Assembly: GCA_965200155.1 (NCBI GenBank) | Contig: CBDATR010000010.1 | Coordinates: 192,001-256,000, forward strand | DNA length: 64,000 bases | Origin: Nitrosopumilaceae archaeon | GTDB lineage: Archaea > Thermoproteota > Nitrososphaeria > Nitrososphaerales > Nitrosopumilaceae | Direction: 5' to 3' | Part shown: one piece after another, positions 4,395 through 63,308 of the stretch | Layout: each line of letters opens with the position of its first letter | Position numbering within the stretch: position 1 is the stretch's first letter | Notes under the pieces: model-generated | The model's input: the letters and a program-made list of their open reading frames with translations, nothing else | What the model was told of the DNA's origin: nothing | Databases searched by the model: none | Made by a program: the position numbers and the translations under genes

Positions 4395-4486
4395 GTATGA
4401 GTTCACGTCTTCCGGAATCTTATGCACAAATCACATTAACTGTCGCGATCAGTTATGCGTAAATTTAGACACAGGTGAACTCATAC
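4395..4486 (+). mobile_element. 92-bp MITE, copy 3
   Basis: Consensus copy; no TSD; sits at the IS630 deletion junction. Confidence 0.95.
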
Positions 4487-11405: not shown

Positions 11406-11497
11406 GTATGAGTTCACCTGTGTCTAAATTTACGCATAACTGATCGCGACAGTTAATGTGATTTGTGCATAAGATTCCGGAAGACGTGAACTCATAC
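11406..11497 (-). mobile_element. 92-bp MITE, copy 5
   Basis: TSD AGATGCAT. Confidence 0.95.
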
Positions 11498-13350: not shown

Positions 13351-14069
13351 GACTCATAGACCTGGGGCCATTCTCCACCAGAGTCTCGCATCTCCCTTAT
13401 GGCATCCAGTGACTTGGTGGCCAGCGCCGCGGCATGCCTGCTGCGGGTGGCGCGACCGATACCGCAGTTTAGTGTTATTCCTAGATGCTCGTGAGTTTCA
13501 TGTATTAAATCCCGGACATCTTTAATGCCCTGGGAGCTGGACAGGACCATAAAATTATCACCGCCCATAAAGAATGACAGGGACTTGCGTTTCCTAAAGA
13601 AGTGTGCCATCATGCCGTATAGGTCAAGAATCTTGAGGGAGATATCATATGGCGATACGGTATGAGTCTGGGAGGTCAAATCATCCACGTCCAGGTGCAT
13701 TATGGCAATGTCATTGTTGTCATCGGGCTCGCCGCTGATAAAGACATCATCCTCTCTTGATTTTTGTGCCATGGCATTGGCGTCATAGGGAGTCAGGGCC
13801 ACCCCGGCATGCATTTGCAGTCCCACCTCAAATTCATCCAATAATTTATCCCGTATATTGATATGATCAGACTGGTCCAGGCCGTTGGATGCTATAATGT
13901 ACTCGTCATACCTGTTGGGAAAGACAAGACAGTCCCGCTCCGCAAACAGTCCTTGCAGTCTCCCGTATAATGAAGCCTGAAGCATTTGGAGGCGATGCTC
14001 CCGATCAGACCCCAGGGTCAGGGTCCAGGGTCCATATCCCTTTATTCTTGCCACCGTTACCTGTATCAT
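13344..14069 (-). CDS. gch3: GTP cyclohydrolase III (archaeal)
   Basis: YGPWTLTLGSDREH, FMGGDNF. Confidence 0.9.
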   Translation of the reverse strand: MIQVTVARIKGYGPWTLTLGSDREHRLQMLQASLYGRLQGLFAERDCLVFPNRYDEYIIASNGLDQSDHINIRDKLLDEFEVGLQMHAGVALTPYDANAMAQKSREDDVFISGEPDDNNDIAIMHLDVDDLTSQTHTVSPYDISLKILDLYGMMAHFFRKRKSLSFFMGGDNFMVLSSSQGIKDVRDLIHETHEHLGITLNCGIGRATRSRHAAALATKSLDAIREMRDSGGEWPQVYESC

Positions 14070-16413: not shown

Positions 16414-16765
16414 GTATGAGTTCACGTGTTTTGATCACATAATAAGATAGAATGCATCCCAGTTTTTTAATTATAATTGCATGCTGGCAGCAACCTCATT
16501 CATTACAGAAAGGCCCTGAGCCCTCCGTGTCTGAACACATGTGGACATGCGGCGCATGGCCCTTTCACCACTCTTTATCTGACCACTAATCTTACGGAAT
16601 ACCACCGCGTATCAGAACCGGTTCCACTGCTCCGCTGGATTGTTGGTGGGCTCCACACTGTCATATTCTAGGAATACGAACATGCCTGGTATGGCCTTAT
16701 TCAATCCTTTTACCTTCTTTTGCAGTTCAGTATCCTCAACATCATAATACTGATGCATCTGCTCC

Positions 16766-16857
16766 GTGTGAGTTCACCTGTGTCTAAATTTACGCATAAC
16801 TGATCGCGACAGTTAACGTGATTTGTGCATAAGATTCCGGAAGACGTGAACTCATAC
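16766..16857 (-). mobile_element. 92-bp MITE, copy 6 (inside IS66)
   Basis: TSD TCTGCTCC. Confidence 0.95.
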
Positions 16858-17395
16858 TCTGCTCCTGCCTCAAATGAGTGTCGTAATTGCGCGGACGGCC
16901 CGCAGCGATTCACGTGCGCTCCGGATCAAATCGTTGTCAAGTTTGATCCGGGCGTCATGATCACCGGGATCGATATAGAATCCTGCATGTAATATACTGG
17001 TATCGCGCAATAAATGCGCCCAGATGGTGCTTCCCATCGTCATCAAACCGGTAACACACAACGTACCTGTCTGTGACTATCGCGCCCTGGTAACCGTTCA
17101 GGTATTTGCCCACTACATATGAACTCCTACTTTTGTATATCATCCACTCTTCGGCCCGCATCCCCCATATCCAGCCACGCTTACCCGCCAGTGATATACC
17201 AGTTTCGTCCACATGAATGCTGGGTGATTTTATTATATTCTCATAAATTGTTTCCATAAATGATTCGCATGCATCGGCGGCCCTGGCAATTATGTTGTTC
17301 ACCGCACCCACCGATATATTCAGGCCGAAGAGATCCCTCGAAATTACAGGTATGCGCTTTATTGGAATCTTTTCCGCACGTAATGCAGTGATGGC

Positions 17396-17487
17396 GTATG
17401 AGTTCACGTCTTCCGGAATCTTGTGTACAAATCACATTAACTGTCGCGATCAGTTGTGCGTAAATTTAGACACAGGTGAACTCATAC
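17396..17487 (+). mobile_element. 92-bp MITE, copy 7 (inside IS66)
   Basis: TSD GTGATGGC. Confidence 0.95.
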
Positions 17488-17864
17488 GTGATGGCACCAC
17501 ATCTCAAAACCACCACTCTCTGGGACGCCCGCTGCTGGGGCTAGTTGTTTTTTGCCGCACTTGCATGCAGCCATTTCTATCACATGAAGGGTCTCCTCTA
17601 TTCTGGCTGGTATTAATTCTGTTATGCGTCGTTGTTTCCAACCACTTTTTGTCATTATATTGCTGCACTCACATTGTGGAGTATGCTCAAAGGTGTGGCG
17701 CATTACTCTGTCGGGGTTGTGGGAACGGGAAACCCCCTTGTGTCCCTTTTGCGCGCCAACCTTTTTGGCTGATTTCGTACTGGCTTCTGTCTGTTGCTTA
17801 TTATCTCCCTGTTTCCGCTTCTTGTACTGGAGGGATTGAAGGGATGGTGGCGAGTGAGCATTCT

Positions 17865-17956
17865 GTATGAGTTCACGTCTTCCGGAATATTATGCACAAA
17901 TCACATTAACTGTCGCAATCAGTTATGCGTAAATTTAGACACAGGTGAACTCATAC
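17865..17956 (+). mobile_element. 92-bp MITE, copy 8 (inside IS66)
   Basis: TSD AGCATTCT. Confidence 0.95.
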
Positions 17957-18129
17957 AGCATTCTCATAATGTTTAAGTCGCGTTGTGATTACCGCAATTT
18001 TCCCCTGTTTTTCTTTTAATTTCTCATTCAATTCATTTACATAATTCCTAATAATTTGGAAATCTTGTGTGAGATTTCGTATTTCTTTTGTGGTGCGGGA
18101 CACATATGCTTCCAATACTCTCACACGTT

Positions 18130-18309
18130 CCTTGTAATGTGCAAGATCTTTCTCGGTGGCCGCAAGACGTAGGACAAGGCGCATCTTGCCCATGGCCTCT
18201 GCCTTGTAATGTGCAAGTTCTTTCTCGGTAGCCGCAAGTATTATGTCTCCACGTTTTATCTCTCGCTCATTCTCCTTTAATGTGCAAGTTCTTTCTTGGT
18301 AGACGCAAG
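18130..18309. CRISPR. CRISPR-like mini-array: 3 x ~37-bp repeat, 2 x 35-bp unique spacer, inside the IS66 transposase gene
   Basis: Repeat CCTTGTAATGTGCAAGTTCTTTCTCGGTAGCCGCAAG at 18130-18166, 18202-18238, 18274-18309; unrelated spacers 18167-18201 and 18239-18273; no cas genes in window. Confidence 0.55.
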
Positions 18310-18670
18310 GGTATCCTGAAGAAGCTTATTTTTTAGTTCCAATTCCTTATAGGACCGGCGCCTTCTCATTAGATTCTTATTGCAAATTTGATATTTAAGC
18401 AAAATATTGTCATACCAATCTATATCTTAGTGAATGATCAAAACACGTGAACTCATACGCATAAATTATAGTCATACGTAAATAAGTATGAATTTAATTA
18501 GTGCTTAATTTTTATTAATAATTATTTCATGACAATAATTTACCTTAATTTACACATGACAAATTGTGAGGATTATTTCTTATGCGACAATACGATTTTC
18601 GAGTGCGCGATTAGAAACCGTGAATTTATCGAGGCACAGATATATGAAGGCAAATTATGCAAAAAATACA

Positions 18671-33202: not shown

Positions 33203-33676
33203 ATGACAGAGCCCGCAGAGAAGATAAAGAATGTGATAAAGGTTCTGTACGGGACCGGAGTTGCACGATACGTACCCAAGGATATTCGGTTCGAATACTC
33301 CAGAACGGGCAGGATTCGAAGCGTGTACAAGGACACGACGCTATTATGTACGCTGAGGCCTGACGGGGGCCTGGCACTTGGCATACCGCTCGCCCAGATG
33401 TTGCTTAGTAGCTCGCGCTTTTTGGAGTCCTGCGTAGAGATAAGTGCAGATGCAGTTCCTTTTGTTAAGGAGGGACGTAGCGTCTTTGCCAAACACGTAG
33501 TCAGATGTGGCAGTAATGTTGCAGTATCTGCAGATACGCCGGTCATATACCAAGGCAGGGTGATTGCCATAGGCAGGGCCGTACTCGGCGCCAGTATGCT
33601 AGCAGGATGCAGTAGGGGAGTGGCCATACGTGTTCGTAAGGGCTTAAAAGGAAGAGAGGTAATGCCAGAGACATGA
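33203..33676 (+). CDS. PUA-domain protein (archaeosine TGT C-terminal-like)
   Basis: SRTGRIR, LCTLRPDG, GRSVFAKHV, GVAIRVR. Confidence 0.8.
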   Translation: MTEPAEKIKNVIKVLYGTGVARYVPKDIRFEYSRTGRIRSVYKDTTLLCTLRPDGGLALGIPLAQMLLSSSRFLESCVEISADAVPFVKEGRSVFAKHVVRCGSNVAVSADTPVIYQGRVIAIGRAVLGASMLAGCSRGVAIRVRKGLKGREVMPET

Positions 33677-34017
33677 TGCGCGGAAGGAGAGGGCGCGACG
33701 TGCGTCGCAGGATGGACAAGATGGGCATGGATATGACCAATATAGACGACGTAAGGGAGGTAATCATACGCACAGAGTCCAAGGAGTATGTAATTACAAA
33801 TCCGGCAGTGAATCGAATGGATAACAAGGAGAGTACAATATTCATGGTAACCGCCAATGGATACGAGGAGAGAGAACCGGAGGTACCCACATATCCGGAG
33901 GAAGATATAGAGATGATATGTATGAGAGCCAACGTCGACAGGGATGCAGCCATATCGGCACTGACAGAGTCTGACGGGGAGCTGGCTACGGCATTATTGC
34001 GGCTCCAGTCCAGCTGA
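33673..34017 (+). CDS. nac: Nascent polypeptide-associated complex protein
   Basis: RRMDKMG, VREVII, UBA-like C-terminus. Confidence 0.9.
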   Translation: MMRGRRGRDVRRRMDKMGMDMTNIDDVREVIIRTESKEYVITNPAVNRMDNKESTIFMVTANGYEEREPEVPTYPEEDIEMICMRANVDRDAAISALTESDGELATALLRLQSS

Positions 34018-36263: not shown

Positions 36264-37658
36264 ATGACAGTAGATATGGTGATAGTAGATTCTCATGTGG
36301 TATTCCCACAGGGCATAGTCGACAAGAATATAGTAATAGACGAGGGAAGAATAGTCGGTCTTACTACAGATGTTCCCGCATGTGACCAAAAGGTGCGGGG
36401 GGATGGTTTGCTGTCAGTACCCGGTCCCATTGATCCCCATGTTCATTATGGCGTATATTCTTCCATAGACAAGGCAGCGGAGACGGAATCACACGCAGCT
36501 GCCATTGGAGGCATTACTACCATGATGCGAATGATGAGGTTGTGGGAACCATTCTCATCAGGACTTCAGCGCCAACTTGATGCCTCGGCCAACACGCACT
36601 ACATAGACTATACTGCACATGCGTCAATCTTCACACACCGGCAAATATCCGAGATGGAATACTGTGCAGAGAGAGGGGTGGCATCCTTCAAGATATACAT
36701 GAATCTGGGCGGCGAAATAGGACATGTCTATATGGATATGCCACCATATTCCACCGAACTTTGTGAAGATAGTGTAGATGTGACCGATGATATAGTGGAG
36801 GAGACTATTAGGGTAGCCGCGAATATGGGTTGCCCCGTATTAATTCATGCAGAGGACTATGAATCATGCGAGTGTGGCATGAAGGAGGCCAAAAAAGAGA
36901 AGCAAGACGGACTGGCTGCGTGGTCCAAGAGCAGGGATCCCCATTATGAGGCAAAGGCAATAAAAAAGGCATGCCGGTTTGGACGCAAATATGGCTGCGT
37001 GCTATACTTTGTGCACATAGGATCCCAAGTTGCACTGGACCAGATCATGGCAGAGCGCCAATTGGGGACAAGCATACGCGTGGAGAGTTGCCCGCACTAC
37101 ATGGTACTCTCCCATGAAAACAGAAACGATCATCTGGCCAAGGTGATGCCACCCATACGTGCCAATTCCGATAATAATTCGGTCTGGAGTGCAGTGAGCC
37201 AGAATCGTATAGATACCATAGGTACAGACCATGTTGCCAACCGACTGGCACGAAAAGTGGGCTCTGATGTCTGGACATCGTTGGCCGGGTTTCCGGGGAT
37301 TGGGACGATGATCCCAATCCTGCTAAGCGAGGGCGTAAATCGTAACAGAATATCCCTAGAGCAGTTCATCAGGTTGACCAGTGTAAATACGGCAAAGATC
37401 TTCTCCATGTATCCAAAAAAAGGATCATTGGAGGCAGGTACGGACGCAGACATATCCATGCTAGACCTGAAACTGGAGCGAACAGTCACAGCAGATATGT
37501 TCGGAGGGTTCTCTGATTATTCTCCGTATGAGGAATTGTGTCTGCGCGGTTGGCCAGTAAGAACTATTGTGCGAGGGTCTGTGATTGCCGAAGATTTTTC
37601 CGTGGTGGGGAAACGGGGTCACGGAAAATTAGTGTCAAGACCGGATACATGTATATGA
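36264..37658 (+). CDS. pyrC: Dihydroorotase / cyclic amidohydrolase family
   Basis: DPHVH, GGITT, FKIYM, PPIR, GTDH, GTDAD. Confidence 0.8.
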   Translation: MTVDMVIVDSHVVFPQGIVDKNIVIDEGRIVGLTTDVPACDQKVRGDGLLSVPGPIDPHVHYGVYSSIDKAAETESHAAAIGGITTMMRMMRLWEPFSSGLQRQLDASANTHYIDYTAHASIFTHRQISEMEYCAERGVASFKIYMNLGGEIGHVYMDMPPYSTELCEDSVDVTDDIVEETIRVAANMGCPVLIHAEDYESCECGMKEAKKEKQDGLAAWSKSRDPHYEAKAIKKACRFGRKYGCVLYFVHIGSQVALDQIMAERQLGTSIRVESCPHYMVLSHENRNDHLAKVMPPIRANSDNNSVWSAVSQNRIDTIGTDHVANRLARKVGSDVWTSLAGFPGIGTMIPILLSEGVNRNRISLEQFIRLTSVNTAKIFSMYPKKGSLEAGTDADISMLDLKLERTVTADMFGGFSDYSPYEELCLRGWPVRTIVRGSVIAEDFSVVGKRGHGKLVSRPDTCI

Positions 37659-37715
37659 AATACAAAGACGGTATTGACAGGGGAAACGGGGTCACGGAAA
37701 ATTAGTGTCAAGACC
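37607..37715. repeat. Perfect 36-bp direct repeat around a 37-bp unique filler
   Basis: GGGGAAACGGGGTCACGGAAAATTAGTGTCAAGACC at 37607-37642 and 37680-37715. Confidence 0.95.
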
Positions 37716-46401: not shown

Positions 46402-46493
46402 GTATGAGTTCACCTGTGTCTAAATTTACGCACAACTGATCGCGACAGTTAATGTGATTTGTGCACAAGATTCCGGAAGACGTGAACTCATAC
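46402..46493 (-). mobile_element. 92-bp MITE, copy 12
   Basis: TSD CAAATAGT. Confidence 0.95.
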
Positions 46494-63216: not shown

Positions 63217-63308
63217 GTATGAGTTCACCTGTGTCTAAATTTACGCATAACTGATCGCGACAGTTAATGTTATTTGTGCACAAGATTCCGGAAGACGTGA
63301 ACTCATAC
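63217..63308 (-). mobile_element. 92-bp MITE, copy 13
   Basis: TSD AAATTCGC. Confidence 0.95.

What the first reader, a model, noticed from the sequence alone, without database searches (positions are those of the whole stretch)
18130..18309. CRISPR-like 3-repeat/2-spacer array embedded in frame in the IS66 transposase gene
Seen: 37-bp repeats (2-3 differences from the middle copy) separated by two unrelated spacers of exactly 35 bp with sharp boundaries. The repeat is transposase coding sequence (LAATEKELAHYK). Collapsing to one copy gives a continuous ...KLLQDT-LAATEKELAHYK-ERVRVLE... coiled coil. Each unit is 72 bp and both spacers read stop-free (ENEREIKRGDII, AEAMGKMRLVLR), apart from a 1-bp loss in repeat 3. 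Inference: two successive integrations at one site, possibly tolerated by a then-active transposase, so an IS could carry and spread a mini-array within its ORF.
Basis: partly seen in the sequence, partly recalled or inferred. Interest (0 to 1): 0.85.

Follow-up and report, generated by a model that had tools for sequence, protein, structure and literature searches.

The report
Stray CRISPR spacers in transposase gene
The host's own CRISPR spacer-inserting enzyme has pasted short pieces of host genes into the transposase gene of a jumping element, which then carried this accidental mini-array to other places in the genome, giving a natural example of how new CRISPR-like arrays can arise.

Summary
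On the minus (coding) strand of a decayed IS66-family element (window 16414-18458), a stretch of transposase coding sequence occurs three times, separated by two unrelated inserts.

The true unit is 36 nt with 36-nt inserts. That equals the repeat (36 nt) and the spacer lengths (36-38 nt) of the host's only CRISPR locus: type I-G, a Cas4/Cas1 fusion, Cas2 and 289 repeats.

Of 66 loci in the genome that match this repeat, 51 have one copy, 8 two, 6 three and 1 four. Six different inserts sit at exactly this site. The shared one always lies at the 3' end, so addition is polarised.

Insert B is 36/36 identical to the host DNA polymerase B gene and is preceded there by TTG, the type I-G PAM. Insert A is 31/36 identical to a host transketolase/epimerase gene.

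One array-bearing copy has an intact 541-aa transposase, intact ends and an 8-bp target duplication.

About 51 further sites genome-wide show the same 36-nt duplication plus a roughly 36-nt insert, four of them next to the cas genes. A same-genus relative shows none in 800 kb.

Best reading: off-target spacer integration by Cas4/1-Cas2, then spread by transposition.

The parts
16414..18458 (-). Decayed copy of an IS66-family insertion sequence. The reference copy elsewhere is 1674 bp with 24-bp inverted ends and an 8-bp target duplication.
   Evidence: End motifs at 16414-16427 (+) and 18445-18458 (-). Transposase fragments on the minus strand. Pfam DDE_Tnp_IS66 on an intact paralogue, E=6e-39. 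Reference copy and target duplication.
18275..18309 (-). Leader-proximal (newest) copy of the 36-nt pseudo-repeat. Here it is 35 nt because of a 1-nt deletion that breaks the frame.
18239..18274 (-). Spacer B (36 nt), the newer insert. It is a sense, in-frame piece of the host DNA polymerase B gene (36/36 identical to C24:21284-21319, preceded there by TTG).
18203..18238 (-). Middle copy of the pseudo-repeat (36 nt).
18167..18202 (-). Spacer A (36 nt), the older insert, shared by 14 loci. It is 31/36 identical, in sense and frame, to a host transketolase-N/ribulose-phosphate-epimerase gene (from C1:23455).
18131..18166 (-). Trailer copy of the pseudo-repeat (36 nt). This is the original transposase coding sequence (LAATEKDLAHYK) and continues into ERVRVLE...
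17865..17956 (.). 92-bp miniature element carrying the IS ends, inserted in the transposase gene with an 8-bp duplication (AGCATTCT). Two more lie at 17396-17487 and 16766-16857.
   Evidence: (inverted repeat I1).
37607..37715 (.). Second, independent event of the same kind in the window. A perfect 36-nt duplication (37607-37642 and 37680-37715) flanks a 37-nt insert at the 3' end of a 464-aa ORF.
   Evidence: Contigs spanning it were found in 4 of 4 runs from 2 studies.

Best explanation
The array is the product of off-target (ectopic) spacer integration by the host's type I-G adaptation complex (Cas4/Cas1 fusion plus Cas2) into a pseudo-repeat that is ordinary coding sequence of an IS66-family transposase.

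Proposed mechanism. Each event staggers two cuts 36 bp apart, as the enzyme does at a true repeat. It inserts a roughly 36-nt prespacer, and gap repair duplicates the 36-bp target. A second event at the upstream copy adds the next unit, so the newest insert lies 5' in the coding direction.

Why it could spread. One unit is 72 nt (24 codons), and inserts A and B are sense, in-frame gene fragments, so the transposase reading frame stayed open. The element went on transposing, or was moved in trans, and carried the array to new sites, where some copies gained further inserts.

Shown here: the anatomy, the variable copies, the polarity, the host origin of inserts A and B, the equality of lengths with the host CRISPR locus, an intact array-bearing element, and the same signature genome-wide and beside the cas genes.

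Inferred: that Cas4/1-Cas2 is the agent, that the array makes no working guide RNA, and that spread was by transposition rather than by recombination between copies.
For: 1. Ruler. The host CRISPR repeat is exactly 36 nt: 287 of 289 copies are identical and the flanking bases vary. Periods are 72-74 and spacers 36 (85), 37 (101) and 38 (63) of 288. The IS unit is 36 nt, with inserts of 36-37 nt and periods of 72-73; a 30-nt form of insert A gives period 66.

2. Agent present. There is one Cas1 match in the genome. It is an open 549-aa Cas4g/Cas1g protein (NCBIfam E=1e-213), followed by Cas2, the array, and Cas3g, Csb2 and Csb1.

3. Empty and filled sites. Of 66 loci, 51 have one repeat, 8 two, 6 three and 1 four. 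There are six different inserts at the same nucleotide position, and spacers C and D sit in copies with no other insert.

4. Polarity. Insert A is always 3'-most; B, or F then E, lie 5' of it.

5. Inserts are captured DNA. B is 36/36 identical to the host PolB gene and A is 31/36 identical to a transketolase/epimerase gene.

6. PAM and orientation. The source of B is preceded by TTG on the leader-facing side. TTN is the PAM, and 36 bp the main spacer length, of the Geobacter sulfurreducens I-U/I-G module (passages of PMC6547450).

7. Same signature genome-wide. Hits per period at 71-75 are 4, 24, 19, 6 and 4, against 0-12 (mean about 1.2 by my sum) at the 96 other periods from 40 to 140.
- 51 clean non-IS events have duplicated lengths of mostly 36 (18) or 37 (21), and 42 of 51 duplications are perfect.
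- 27 of 51 inserts have a match of 28 nt or more elsewhere in the genome.
- TTN flanks 8 of 25 sourced inserts, against 3.2 expected (p=0.01).
- 4 of 51 events lie within 10 kb upstream of the CRISPR leader, against 0.21 expected (Poisson 7e-5, post hoc). One of them is a two-insert array at the 3' end of cas4/1.

8. Control. 800 kb of a same-genus genome that has Cas4/1 and 128 repeats gives 0 hits at periods 69-77 and 2 hits over periods 40-140.

9. Spread. The C43 copy is 1740 bp, has the target duplication CCTAATTT on both sides and an open 541-aa ORF. The copy at C10:6462 has GATTGATC on both sides. A-bearing arrays have 8 or more different left flanks.

10. One ectopic insert (C25) overlaps canonical spacer 58 by 26 nt, so both drew on one source.
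Against: - The pseudo-repeat is not the CRISPR repeat. Only 15 of 36 positions are identical ungapped (186 of 10,000 shuffles reach this). The leader and the IS upstream region show no significant similarity (210 of 500 shuffles reach the score).
- No shared motif was found among 47 distinct target sites plus the IS site.
- Orientation by PAM and orientation by likeness to the repeat agree in only 4 of 9 informative cases. What makes this site a target is therefore unexplained.
- The source of insert A is preceded by ATG, not TTN, and differs at 5 of 36 positions.
- Inserts C to F have no source in the genome and none in viral contigs (4 scans, 0 hits).
- The control for 'self-derived' is confounded. 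21 of 51 neighbouring control segments also have second hits, because 21 of 51 targets are multi-copy and 291 of 1000 random 36-mers are multi-copy.
- No enzyme activity was measured.
- The IS array itself was not checked in reads; only the event at 37607 was.
- The genome is a draft of 51 contigs, 87.6% complete.
Confidence: 0.9

Rival explanations
1. The IS carries a working mini-CRISPR array for its own benefit. The transposase transcript would be cut into guide RNAs that the host type I-G effector uses, for example against competitors or to regulate host genes, as virus-borne mini-arrays do.
For: The array lies in sense inside a transcribed gene, keeps acquiring spacers in a polarised way, and is carried by a mobile element. 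Virus-borne mini-arrays with one or two spacers are known (passages of PMC8616872 and PMC11656645).
Against: - The repeat differs from the host repeat (15 of 36).
- It lacks the host repeat's hairpin: the host repeat folds at -14.3 kcal/mol (z -2.85), the IS repeat at -4.1 and -3.0 (z -0.68 and -0.25).
- Spacer B matches the host's own PolB gene perfectly, with a TTG PAM. A working guide would attack the chromosome (inference).
- The same structures occur at about 51 unrelated non-IS sites.
- Known viral mini-arrays have repeats identical or very similar to the host's.
Confidence: 0.04
2. Another enzyme made the insertions, for example the IS66 transposase itself or an unknown integrase, which happens to duplicate 36 bp and insert about 36 nt.
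For: Eight of the distinct integration events lie in IS66 copies: six at this site and two at a second site in the 3' part of the gene.
Against: - IS66 copies here make 8-bp duplications.
- Most events are outside the IS.
- Lengths equal the CRISPR repeat and spacer lengths.
- Events are enriched next to the cas genes, and TTN is enriched at insert sources.
- Only one Cas1 match exists, so no casposon-like second Cas1 is present.
Confidence: 0.03
3. It is an ordinary protein tandem repeat of a coiled coil, expanded by slippage or unequal recombination.
For: The region is a coiled-coil N-terminus. One distant homologue (P0006) has its own tandem coiled-coil repeat. One locus (C31:2830) has the unit with spacer B twice, which fits unequal recombination.
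Against: - The inserts are unrelated to the repeat and to each other, and two are copies of other genes.
- 51 loci have a single copy.
- Nine outside homologues at 30-39% identity lack the motifs.
Confidence: 0.01
4. It is an assembly or binning artefact.
For: The genome is a draft of 51 contigs from metagenomes, and repeats are hard to assemble.
Against: - 15 array loci lie in different flanks on 8 contigs.
- The CRISPR-cas contig itself carries IS copies and stray events.
- The event at 37607-37715 is spanned by contigs in 4 of 4 runs from 2 studies, at the depth of its flanks, with no joint that skips it.
- A duplication plus an insert taken from a distant gene is not an expected assembler error (inference).
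Confidence: 0.01

Closest known systems
Neo-CRISPR arrays from non-canonical (off-target) spacer integration (Nivala, Shipman and Church 2018, Nat Microbiol). The paper itself is not held; I know it only through passages in bioRxiv 10.1101/148544 and PMC6698737.
   Same: Cas1-Cas2 integrates spacers at non-CRISPR sites, duplicates a repeat-length stretch of the target, and can add further spacers, creating a new array. The citing text says natural evidence was circumstantial, in two other species.
   Different: The present case is natural, in an archaeon with a type I-G Cas4/1 fusion. It lies inside an open transposase reading frame and is carried to new sites by the IS. It shows six integrations at one site, and about 51 further events sit elsewhere in the same genome.
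Isolated or orphan CRISPR arrays (Shmakov et al. 2020, CRISPR J). Not held; known here only from the introduction of PMC13142298.
   Same: Off-target spacer acquisition is listed there as one of three proposed origins of arrays that lie away from cas genes.
   Different: Those arrays are recognised by CRISPR-like repeats. Here the repeat is unrelated coding sequence, and the arrays are 1-3 spacers long, so array finders tuned to CRISPR repeats would probably pass them by (inference).
Mini-CRISPR arrays of viruses and proviruses (Faure 2019 and Medvedeva 2019, as cited in PMC8616872 and PMC11656645; passages read).
   Same: A mobile element carries one or two spacers between repeats and depends on the host's machinery.
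   Different: Viral mini-arrays have repeats identical or very similar to the host's, and their spacers mostly target related viruses. Here the repeat is unlike the host's (15 of 36), and the two traceable spacers come from host housekeeping genes.
In vitro off-target integration by Pyrococcus furiosus Cas1-Cas2 (PMC6698737; passages read).
   Same: Integration occurs at non-CRISPR sites that share some features with repeats. A repeat-length ruler sets the second cut.
   Different: That work is in vitro on plasmids. Here no shared feature could be extracted from the targets.
IS66-family insertion sequences.
   Same: A DDE_Tnp_IS66 domain (E=6e-39), a weak zf-IS66 match (below the curated cut-off), terminal inverted repeats and 8-bp target duplications.
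   Different: Only the transposase ORF was seen in the 1674-bp element. The TnpA/TnpB accessory genes of classical IS66 (recalled, not tested) were not looked for. The nearest homologues outside this genome are only 30-41% identical.

Membership tests
Canonical CRISPR array of the host (type I-G) | Repeat sequence equal or near-equal to the host repeat | tested here: not met
   15 of 36 positions identical ungapped; 186 of 10,000 shuffles do as well.
Canonical CRISPR array of the host (type I-G) | Repeat length and spacer length of the system | tested here: met
   36-nt unit and 36-37-nt inserts, against a 36-nt repeat and spacers of mostly 36-38 nt.
Canonical CRISPR array of the host (type I-G) | Repeat hairpin for processing | tested here: not met
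   The host repeat folds at -14.3 kcal/mol (z -2.85). The IS repeat variants fold at -4.1 and -3.0 (z -0.68, -0.25). Processing itself was not tested.
Canonical CRISPR array of the host (type I-G) | Leader next to the first repeat | tested here: not met
   No significant similarity between the CRISPR leader and the IS upstream region (210 of 500 shuffles reach the score). Only a shared 9-mer, 5 nt out of register.
Off-target integration product (neo-CRISPR) | Target duplication of exactly repeat length around an insert of spacer length | tested here: met
   The same holds at 51 other sites.
Off-target integration product (neo-CRISPR) | Empty (unduplicated) versions of the same site exist | tested here: met
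   51 of 66 loci have a single copy (two of these are arrays truncated by other insertions). An open 508-aa single-copy transposase ORF exists.
Off-target integration product (neo-CRISPR) | Inserts are captured DNA with the system's PAM at the source | tested here: inconclusive
   B has a 36/36 source preceded by TTG. A has a 31/36 source preceded by ATG. C to F have no source. Genome-wide, TTN flanks 8 of 25 sources against 3.2 expected.
Off-target integration product (neo-CRISPR) | An adaptation module in the same genome | tested here: met
   Open Cas4g/Cas1g (549 aa) and Cas2 (91 aa) next to a 289-repeat array. Activity is not testable with these tools.
Mobile-element-borne functional mini-array | Repeats identical or very similar to the host's, and spacers against rival elements | tested here: not met
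   The repeat is unlike the host's. A and B come from host PolB and transketolase/epimerase genes. C to F are unknown.
IS66 family | DDE_Tnp_IS66 transposase, inverted ends, 8-bp target duplication | tested here: met
   Pfam PF03050, E=6e-39. A 1674-bp copy with 24-bp inverted ends and TAGGGAAG on both sides.

The most novel reading that the evidence does not exclude
In this sponge-associated archaeon the CRISPR adaptation enzyme acts as a genome-wide insertional mutagen. The IS66 site would then be a self-propagating proto-CRISPR: a target that the integrase hits again and again, that rides a transposon to new places, keeps gaining spacers there, and could seed new working arrays, or soak up integrase and spacers to the element's own advantage.
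Probability: 0.2. Interest if true: 0.9.

Novelty: new variant of a known kind. Interest (0 to 1): 0.8.

Why it matters
How new CRISPR arrays arise is an old open question. The one experimental model I could trace comes from E. coli, and a citing preprint adds that the E. coli system needs artificial up-regulation of the acquisition machinery and that the natural evidence is circumstantial.

This genome offers several things that model lacks:
- Dozens of stray integrations in nature, with empty and filled versions of the same site side by side.
- Repeated independent hits at fixed positions. These occur at the IS site and in four other paralogous target families, one of which lies in the 3' part of the same IS.
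- One site inside a transposase gene that stayed open and mobile.

That makes three things directly testable: what a type I-G integrase recognises beyond its own repeat, whether a transposon can carry a nascent array around, and what the integrase captures when selection against self-targeting is absent. On the last point, 27 of 51 stray inserts have a match elsewhere in the genome, against 2 of 288 canonical spacers.

It also warns that stop-free in-frame 'repeats' in proteins of CRISPR-bearing genomes can be integration scars. A same-genus relative shows none in 800 kb, so something specific to this lineage is at work, either in the enzyme or in weak purifying selection in a symbiont.

Tried and rejected
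**Leads that went nowhere**
- Leader mimicry. A local alignment of the CRISPR leader plus repeat against the IS upstream region plus repeat is at chance level.
- Target motif. No 4-mer or 5-mer enrichment among 48 sites survives the number of tests (best p 0.005 among 478 tests).
- Orientation. Orienting targets by likeness to the repeat does not agree with orienting them by PAM (4 of 9 informative cases).
- PAM from the canonical array. Only 2 of 288 canonical spacers hit the genome outside the array (28 and 17 nt), too few to derive a PAM.
- Flank tree of the IS copies. The alignment was spoiled by truncated copies and I dropped it. I used flanks and target duplications instead.
- Other genomes. 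The array pattern occurs in 0 of 40 relatives. IS DNA gives one weak 48-nt match in 25 relatives. The single pattern hits in metagenome contigs (a histidine-kinase-like gene, read by eye) and in genome contigs (a Bacillus contig) are chance matches.
- Spacers C to F in viral contigs: 0 hits in 4 scans.
- Rfam on 17900-18520: only a chance miRNA row, E=0.68.
- Is interference broken? The Csx17/Cas8g model (TIGR04113) finds nothing in this genome, but it also finds nothing in 4 of 5 relatives that have Cas4/1, and the control genomes did not ring. This says nothing either way.
- 'Self-derived' control. Neighbouring 36-mers have second hits in 21 of 51 cases because many targets are multi-copy, so the 27 of 51 figure cannot be read against it.
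It shows presence in 4 runs and no empty-site contig. Contigs cannot show absence of a rare allele.
- Supplements of papers were not opened.

**Rows dropped before counts**
- One search printed 100 rows. 71 were kept after removing IS-site and tandem rows.
- 57 of those 71 pass the length and identity limits.
- 51 of those 71 also pass a 4-mer complexity filter.
- For the PAM count, 2 of the 27 sourced rows (one duplicated locus, C10:339147 and C35:29691) were left out.
Full report
**1. What is there**

The window is G000:C10:192001-256000. The repeat finder confirms three copies of a 37-nt stretch at 18130-18166, 18202-18238 and 18273-18309, spaced 72 and 71 nt apart, with unrelated DNA between them.

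The coding strand is minus. The stretch is the N-terminal coiled-coil part of an IS66-family transposase (Pfam DDE_Tnp_IS66, E=6e-39, on an intact paralogue).

The window's element runs from 16414 to 18458 between inverted ends. It is dead:
- Three 92-bp miniature elements carrying the IS's own ends interrupt the gene, at 16766-16857, 17396-17487 and 17865-17956.
- The first repeat has lost one base.

**2. The other copies decide the question**

A search of the whole genome (51 contigs, 2.38 Mb, 87.6% complete) for the repeat, allowing up to 8 substitutions, gives 89 matches in 66 loci. Of these, 51 have one copy, 8 two, 6 three and 1 four. Two of the 'single' loci are arrays cut short by later insertions.

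At exactly the same position different copies hold different inserts:
- A: 36 nt, with a common form shortened by 6 nt.
- B: 36 nt.
- C: 37 nt, found only at C10:83011.
- D: 36 nt, found only at C24:460666.
- E and F: 36 and 37 nt, found only at C24:500844.

The base after position 36 changes with the insert (A with spacer C, T with spacer D), so the duplicated unit is 36 nt. Insert A is always the 3'-most in the coding direction, and B, or F and then E, lie 5' of it. Addition is therefore polarised.

Single-copy forms dominate, and the nine outside homologues aligned (30-39% identical) lack the motifs.

**3. The host CRISPR locus has the same ruler**

The genome has one Cas1 match. It is an open 549-aa Cas4g/Cas1g fusion (NCBIfam E=1e-213). 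It is followed by Cas2, by a 289-repeat array at C9:71011-92074, and on the far side by a Cas3-extension protein, Cas3g, Csb2 and Csb1. This is a type I-G locus.

The repeat is exactly 36 nt: 287 of 289 copies are identical and the bases on either side vary. Of the 288 spacers, 85 are 36 nt, 101 are 37 nt and 63 are 38 nt. The IS unit (36 nt) and its inserts (36-37 nt) fall on these values.

The sequences themselves are not alike:
- Only 15 of 36 positions are identical, which 186 of 10,000 shuffles reach.
- The leader is not similar to the IS upstream region.
- The host repeat folds into an 8-bp hairpin (-14.3 kcal/mol), which the IS repeat lacks.

Same-genus relatives carry related 36-nt repeats with the same ends.

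**4. Where the inserts came from**

Insert B is 36/36 identical to C24:21284-21319. This lies inside the host's 844-aa family-B DNA polymerase gene, between a dCMP-deaminase-like ORF and a triosephosphate-isomerase-like ORF (both named by eye), so it is a chromosomal core region. In the source it is preceded by TTG.

TTN is the PAM, and 36 bp the main spacer length, of the Geobacter sulfurreducens I-U (now I-G) adaptation module (passages of PMC6547450). The PAM-side end of B faces the side where new inserts are added, as expected for a type I array.

Insert A is 31/36 identical to a 556-aa transketolase-N/ribulose-phosphate-3-epimerase gene on C1, where it is preceded by ATG.

Both inserts lie in the IS in the sense and frame of their source genes. 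With two cases this may be chance (about 1 in 36 by my arithmetic), or it may be a filter for inserts that keep the transposase open.

Inserts C to F have no source in the genome or in viral contigs.

**5. The array travelled with the element**

The reference element is 1674 bp, with 24-bp inverted ends and an 8-bp target duplication.
- The copy at C43:71454 is 1740 bp, that is 1674 plus 36 plus 30. It has CCTAATTT on both sides and an open 541-aa transposase with a 22-residue insertion.
- The copy at C10:6462 (inserts B and A) has GATTGATC on both sides.
- The copy with insert D has GCCATCTT on both sides.
- A-bearing arrays have at least 8 different left flanks, and B-bearing arrays have 4.

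Some loci share flanks and may be duplicated segments, so these are loci, not counted transposition events. Recombination between copies could also move arrays. Transposition is the simpler reading, but it is inferred.

**6. The IS site is one hot spot of a genome-wide activity**

I scanned the genome for stretches of about 30 nt or more that repeat at a fixed distance. Outside the CRISPR array, periods 71, 72, 73, 74 and 75 give 4, 24, 19, 6 and 4 hits. Each of the other 96 periods between 40 and 140 gives 0-12, with a mean of about 1.2 by my sum.

After removing IS-site rows, tandem repeats and low-complexity rows, 51 events remain:
- Duplicated lengths are 36 nt (18 events), 37 (21), 38 (5), and other lengths in 7.
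- Periods are 72 (21), 73 (13), 74 (7), 75 (6) and 71 (4).
- 42 of the 51 duplications are perfect.
- 27 of the 51 inserts have a match of 28 nt or more elsewhere in the genome, and 21 of these have a single source, often 100% identical and in an unrelated context.

The simple control for the last figure is confounded by the repeat-rich genome.

Further observations on these events:
- TTN flanks 8 of 25 sourced inserts, against 3.2 expected (p=0.01).
- Four of the 51 events lie within 10 kb upstream of the CRISPR leader, against 0.21 expected (Poisson 7e-5, a post hoc test). One is a two-insert array that starts in the last codons of cas4/1.
- Four paralogous target families were hit at the same position (within 1 nt) with different inserts. 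One of them lies in the 3' part of the same IS66 gene.
- One stray insert overlaps canonical spacer 58 by 26 nt.
- The targets are slightly more like the CRISPR repeat than random DNA: the mean best match is 12.8 of 36 against 11.3 (Mann-Whitney p=1e-6). No motif emerged.

One event lies in the window, at 37607-37715, at the end of a 464-aa ORF. Contigs of 4 runs from 2 studies of sponge-associated samples span it at the depth of their flanks, and none skips it. The best DNA holder may be the source sample.

As a control, 800 kb (36%) of a same-genus genome that has Cas4/1 and 128 repeats gives 0 hits at periods 69-77 and 2 hits over all periods.

**7. The organism**

The PolB protein is 66-67% identical to proteins named Nitrosopumilus or Nitrosopumilaceae, and 78% identical to the best unnamed protein. 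The runs that hold the window are labelled sponge metagenome. It is therefore probably a sponge-associated ammonia-oxidising archaeon of the Nitrosopumilaceae.

The genome is repeat-rich. 291 of 1000 random 36-mers have a second copy, and IS66-like DNA totals about 101 kb.

**8. Mechanism and its limits**

The best reading is off-target integration by Cas4/1-Cas2 with its 36-bp ruler, followed by spread of the open-frame element. I put this at about 0.9.

It probably makes no working guide:
- The repeat has no hairpin.
- Insert B matches an essential host gene perfectly, with a proper PAM, which a working array should not tolerate (inference).
- Self matches are common among stray inserts (27 of 51) and rare in the canonical array (2 of 288). 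This fits purging of self-targeting spacers only where guides are made (inference).

Two things remain unexplained. The first is why this site is hit. Its 66 copies enlarge the target, but the nucleotide precision of independent hits needs a recognition feature that I could not find. The second is why this genome and not its relative. An altered enzyme or host factor, or weak selection in a symbiont, are both possible and untested.

**9. Relation to what is known**

Off-target integration that spawns new arrays was shown in E. coli by Nivala et al. 2018. That paper is not held, and I read only passages in papers that cite it. One of them, a preprint, adds that the E. coli system is not naturally active and needs artificial up-regulation of the acquisition machinery, and that Nivala et al. 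found circumstantial natural evidence in two other species.

Off-target acquisition is also listed as one of three proposed origins of isolated arrays, in a passage of PMC13142298 that cites Shmakov et al. 2020, which is not held either.

My searches listed no report of an array inside a transposase reading frame that spreads with the IS, and none of dozens of natural stray integrations in one genome. These searches cover only the held library, and supplements were closed.

I rate it a new variant of a known kind.

Noticed in passing
window 37607-37715: A second stray integration: a perfect 36-nt duplication around a 37-nt insert, changing the last residues of a 464-aa ORF (36264-37658). Contigs spanning it are present in 4 of 4 runs from 2 studies.
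   Followed up: yes
window, 28 end-motif matches (e.g. 2583-2674, 4395-4486, 11406-11497, 17865-17956, 46402-46493, 63217-63308): About a dozen 92-bp miniature elements built from the two ends of the IS66-family element. The one at 17865-17956 has an 8-bp target duplication (AGCATTCT). 28 matches against 0.37 expected.
   Followed up: partly
window 13388-13422 and 33674-33709: These stretches are the 100%-identical sources of stray inserts found at C24:326707 and C24:237593, so the window also donates spacers.
   Followed up: partly
G000 C9:70400-70590 (locus L031, about 2459-2649): A three-repeat, two-insert stray array begins in the last codons of cas4/1 and fills the gap before cas2. One insert is 100% identical to C10:291117-291150.
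   Followed up: partly
G000 C9:129719 and C9:154007; the same sequence at window 16558-16598: A second recurrent target lies in the 3' part of the IS66 transposase gene (the FRKISGQIKGG region). It was hit twice with different inserts. The window copy is unhit.
   Followed up: partly
G000 C25:4797-4831 and canonical spacer 58 (C9, about 75221-75246): A stray insert and a canonical spacer overlap by 26 nt, offset by about 10 nt, so both were cut from one unknown source.
   Followed up: partly
run X6, contig laid on window 37645-37679: A 61-nt contig at depth 6 matches the insert with 2 differences and then runs on into other sequence. It may be the insert's source in another genome of the sample.
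   Followed up: no
G000, e.g. C10:267609, C24:251535, C34:83785: A sister IS subfamily (open frames of 534 aa) reads LASIKKDIEDYKKDLAHYK at this place, seven residues longer. No copy of it carries an insert.
   Followed up: no
G000 C9, downstream of the array (locus L056 7429-8326 and 8754-11429): IS5-like transposase fragments and an 891-aa DUF1156 anti-phage-type protein lie just beyond csb1, where a large subunit gene might be expected. No Csx17 match was found in this genome.
   Followed up: partly
protein P0006 (outside homologue, residues about 1-60): This distant IS66 homologue has an ordinary tandem coiled-coil repeat of its own (TIDEMTDE(R/K)R(N/D)FKK twice, then a diverged third copy). 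This is what the rival 'protein repeat' reading would look like.
   Followed up: no
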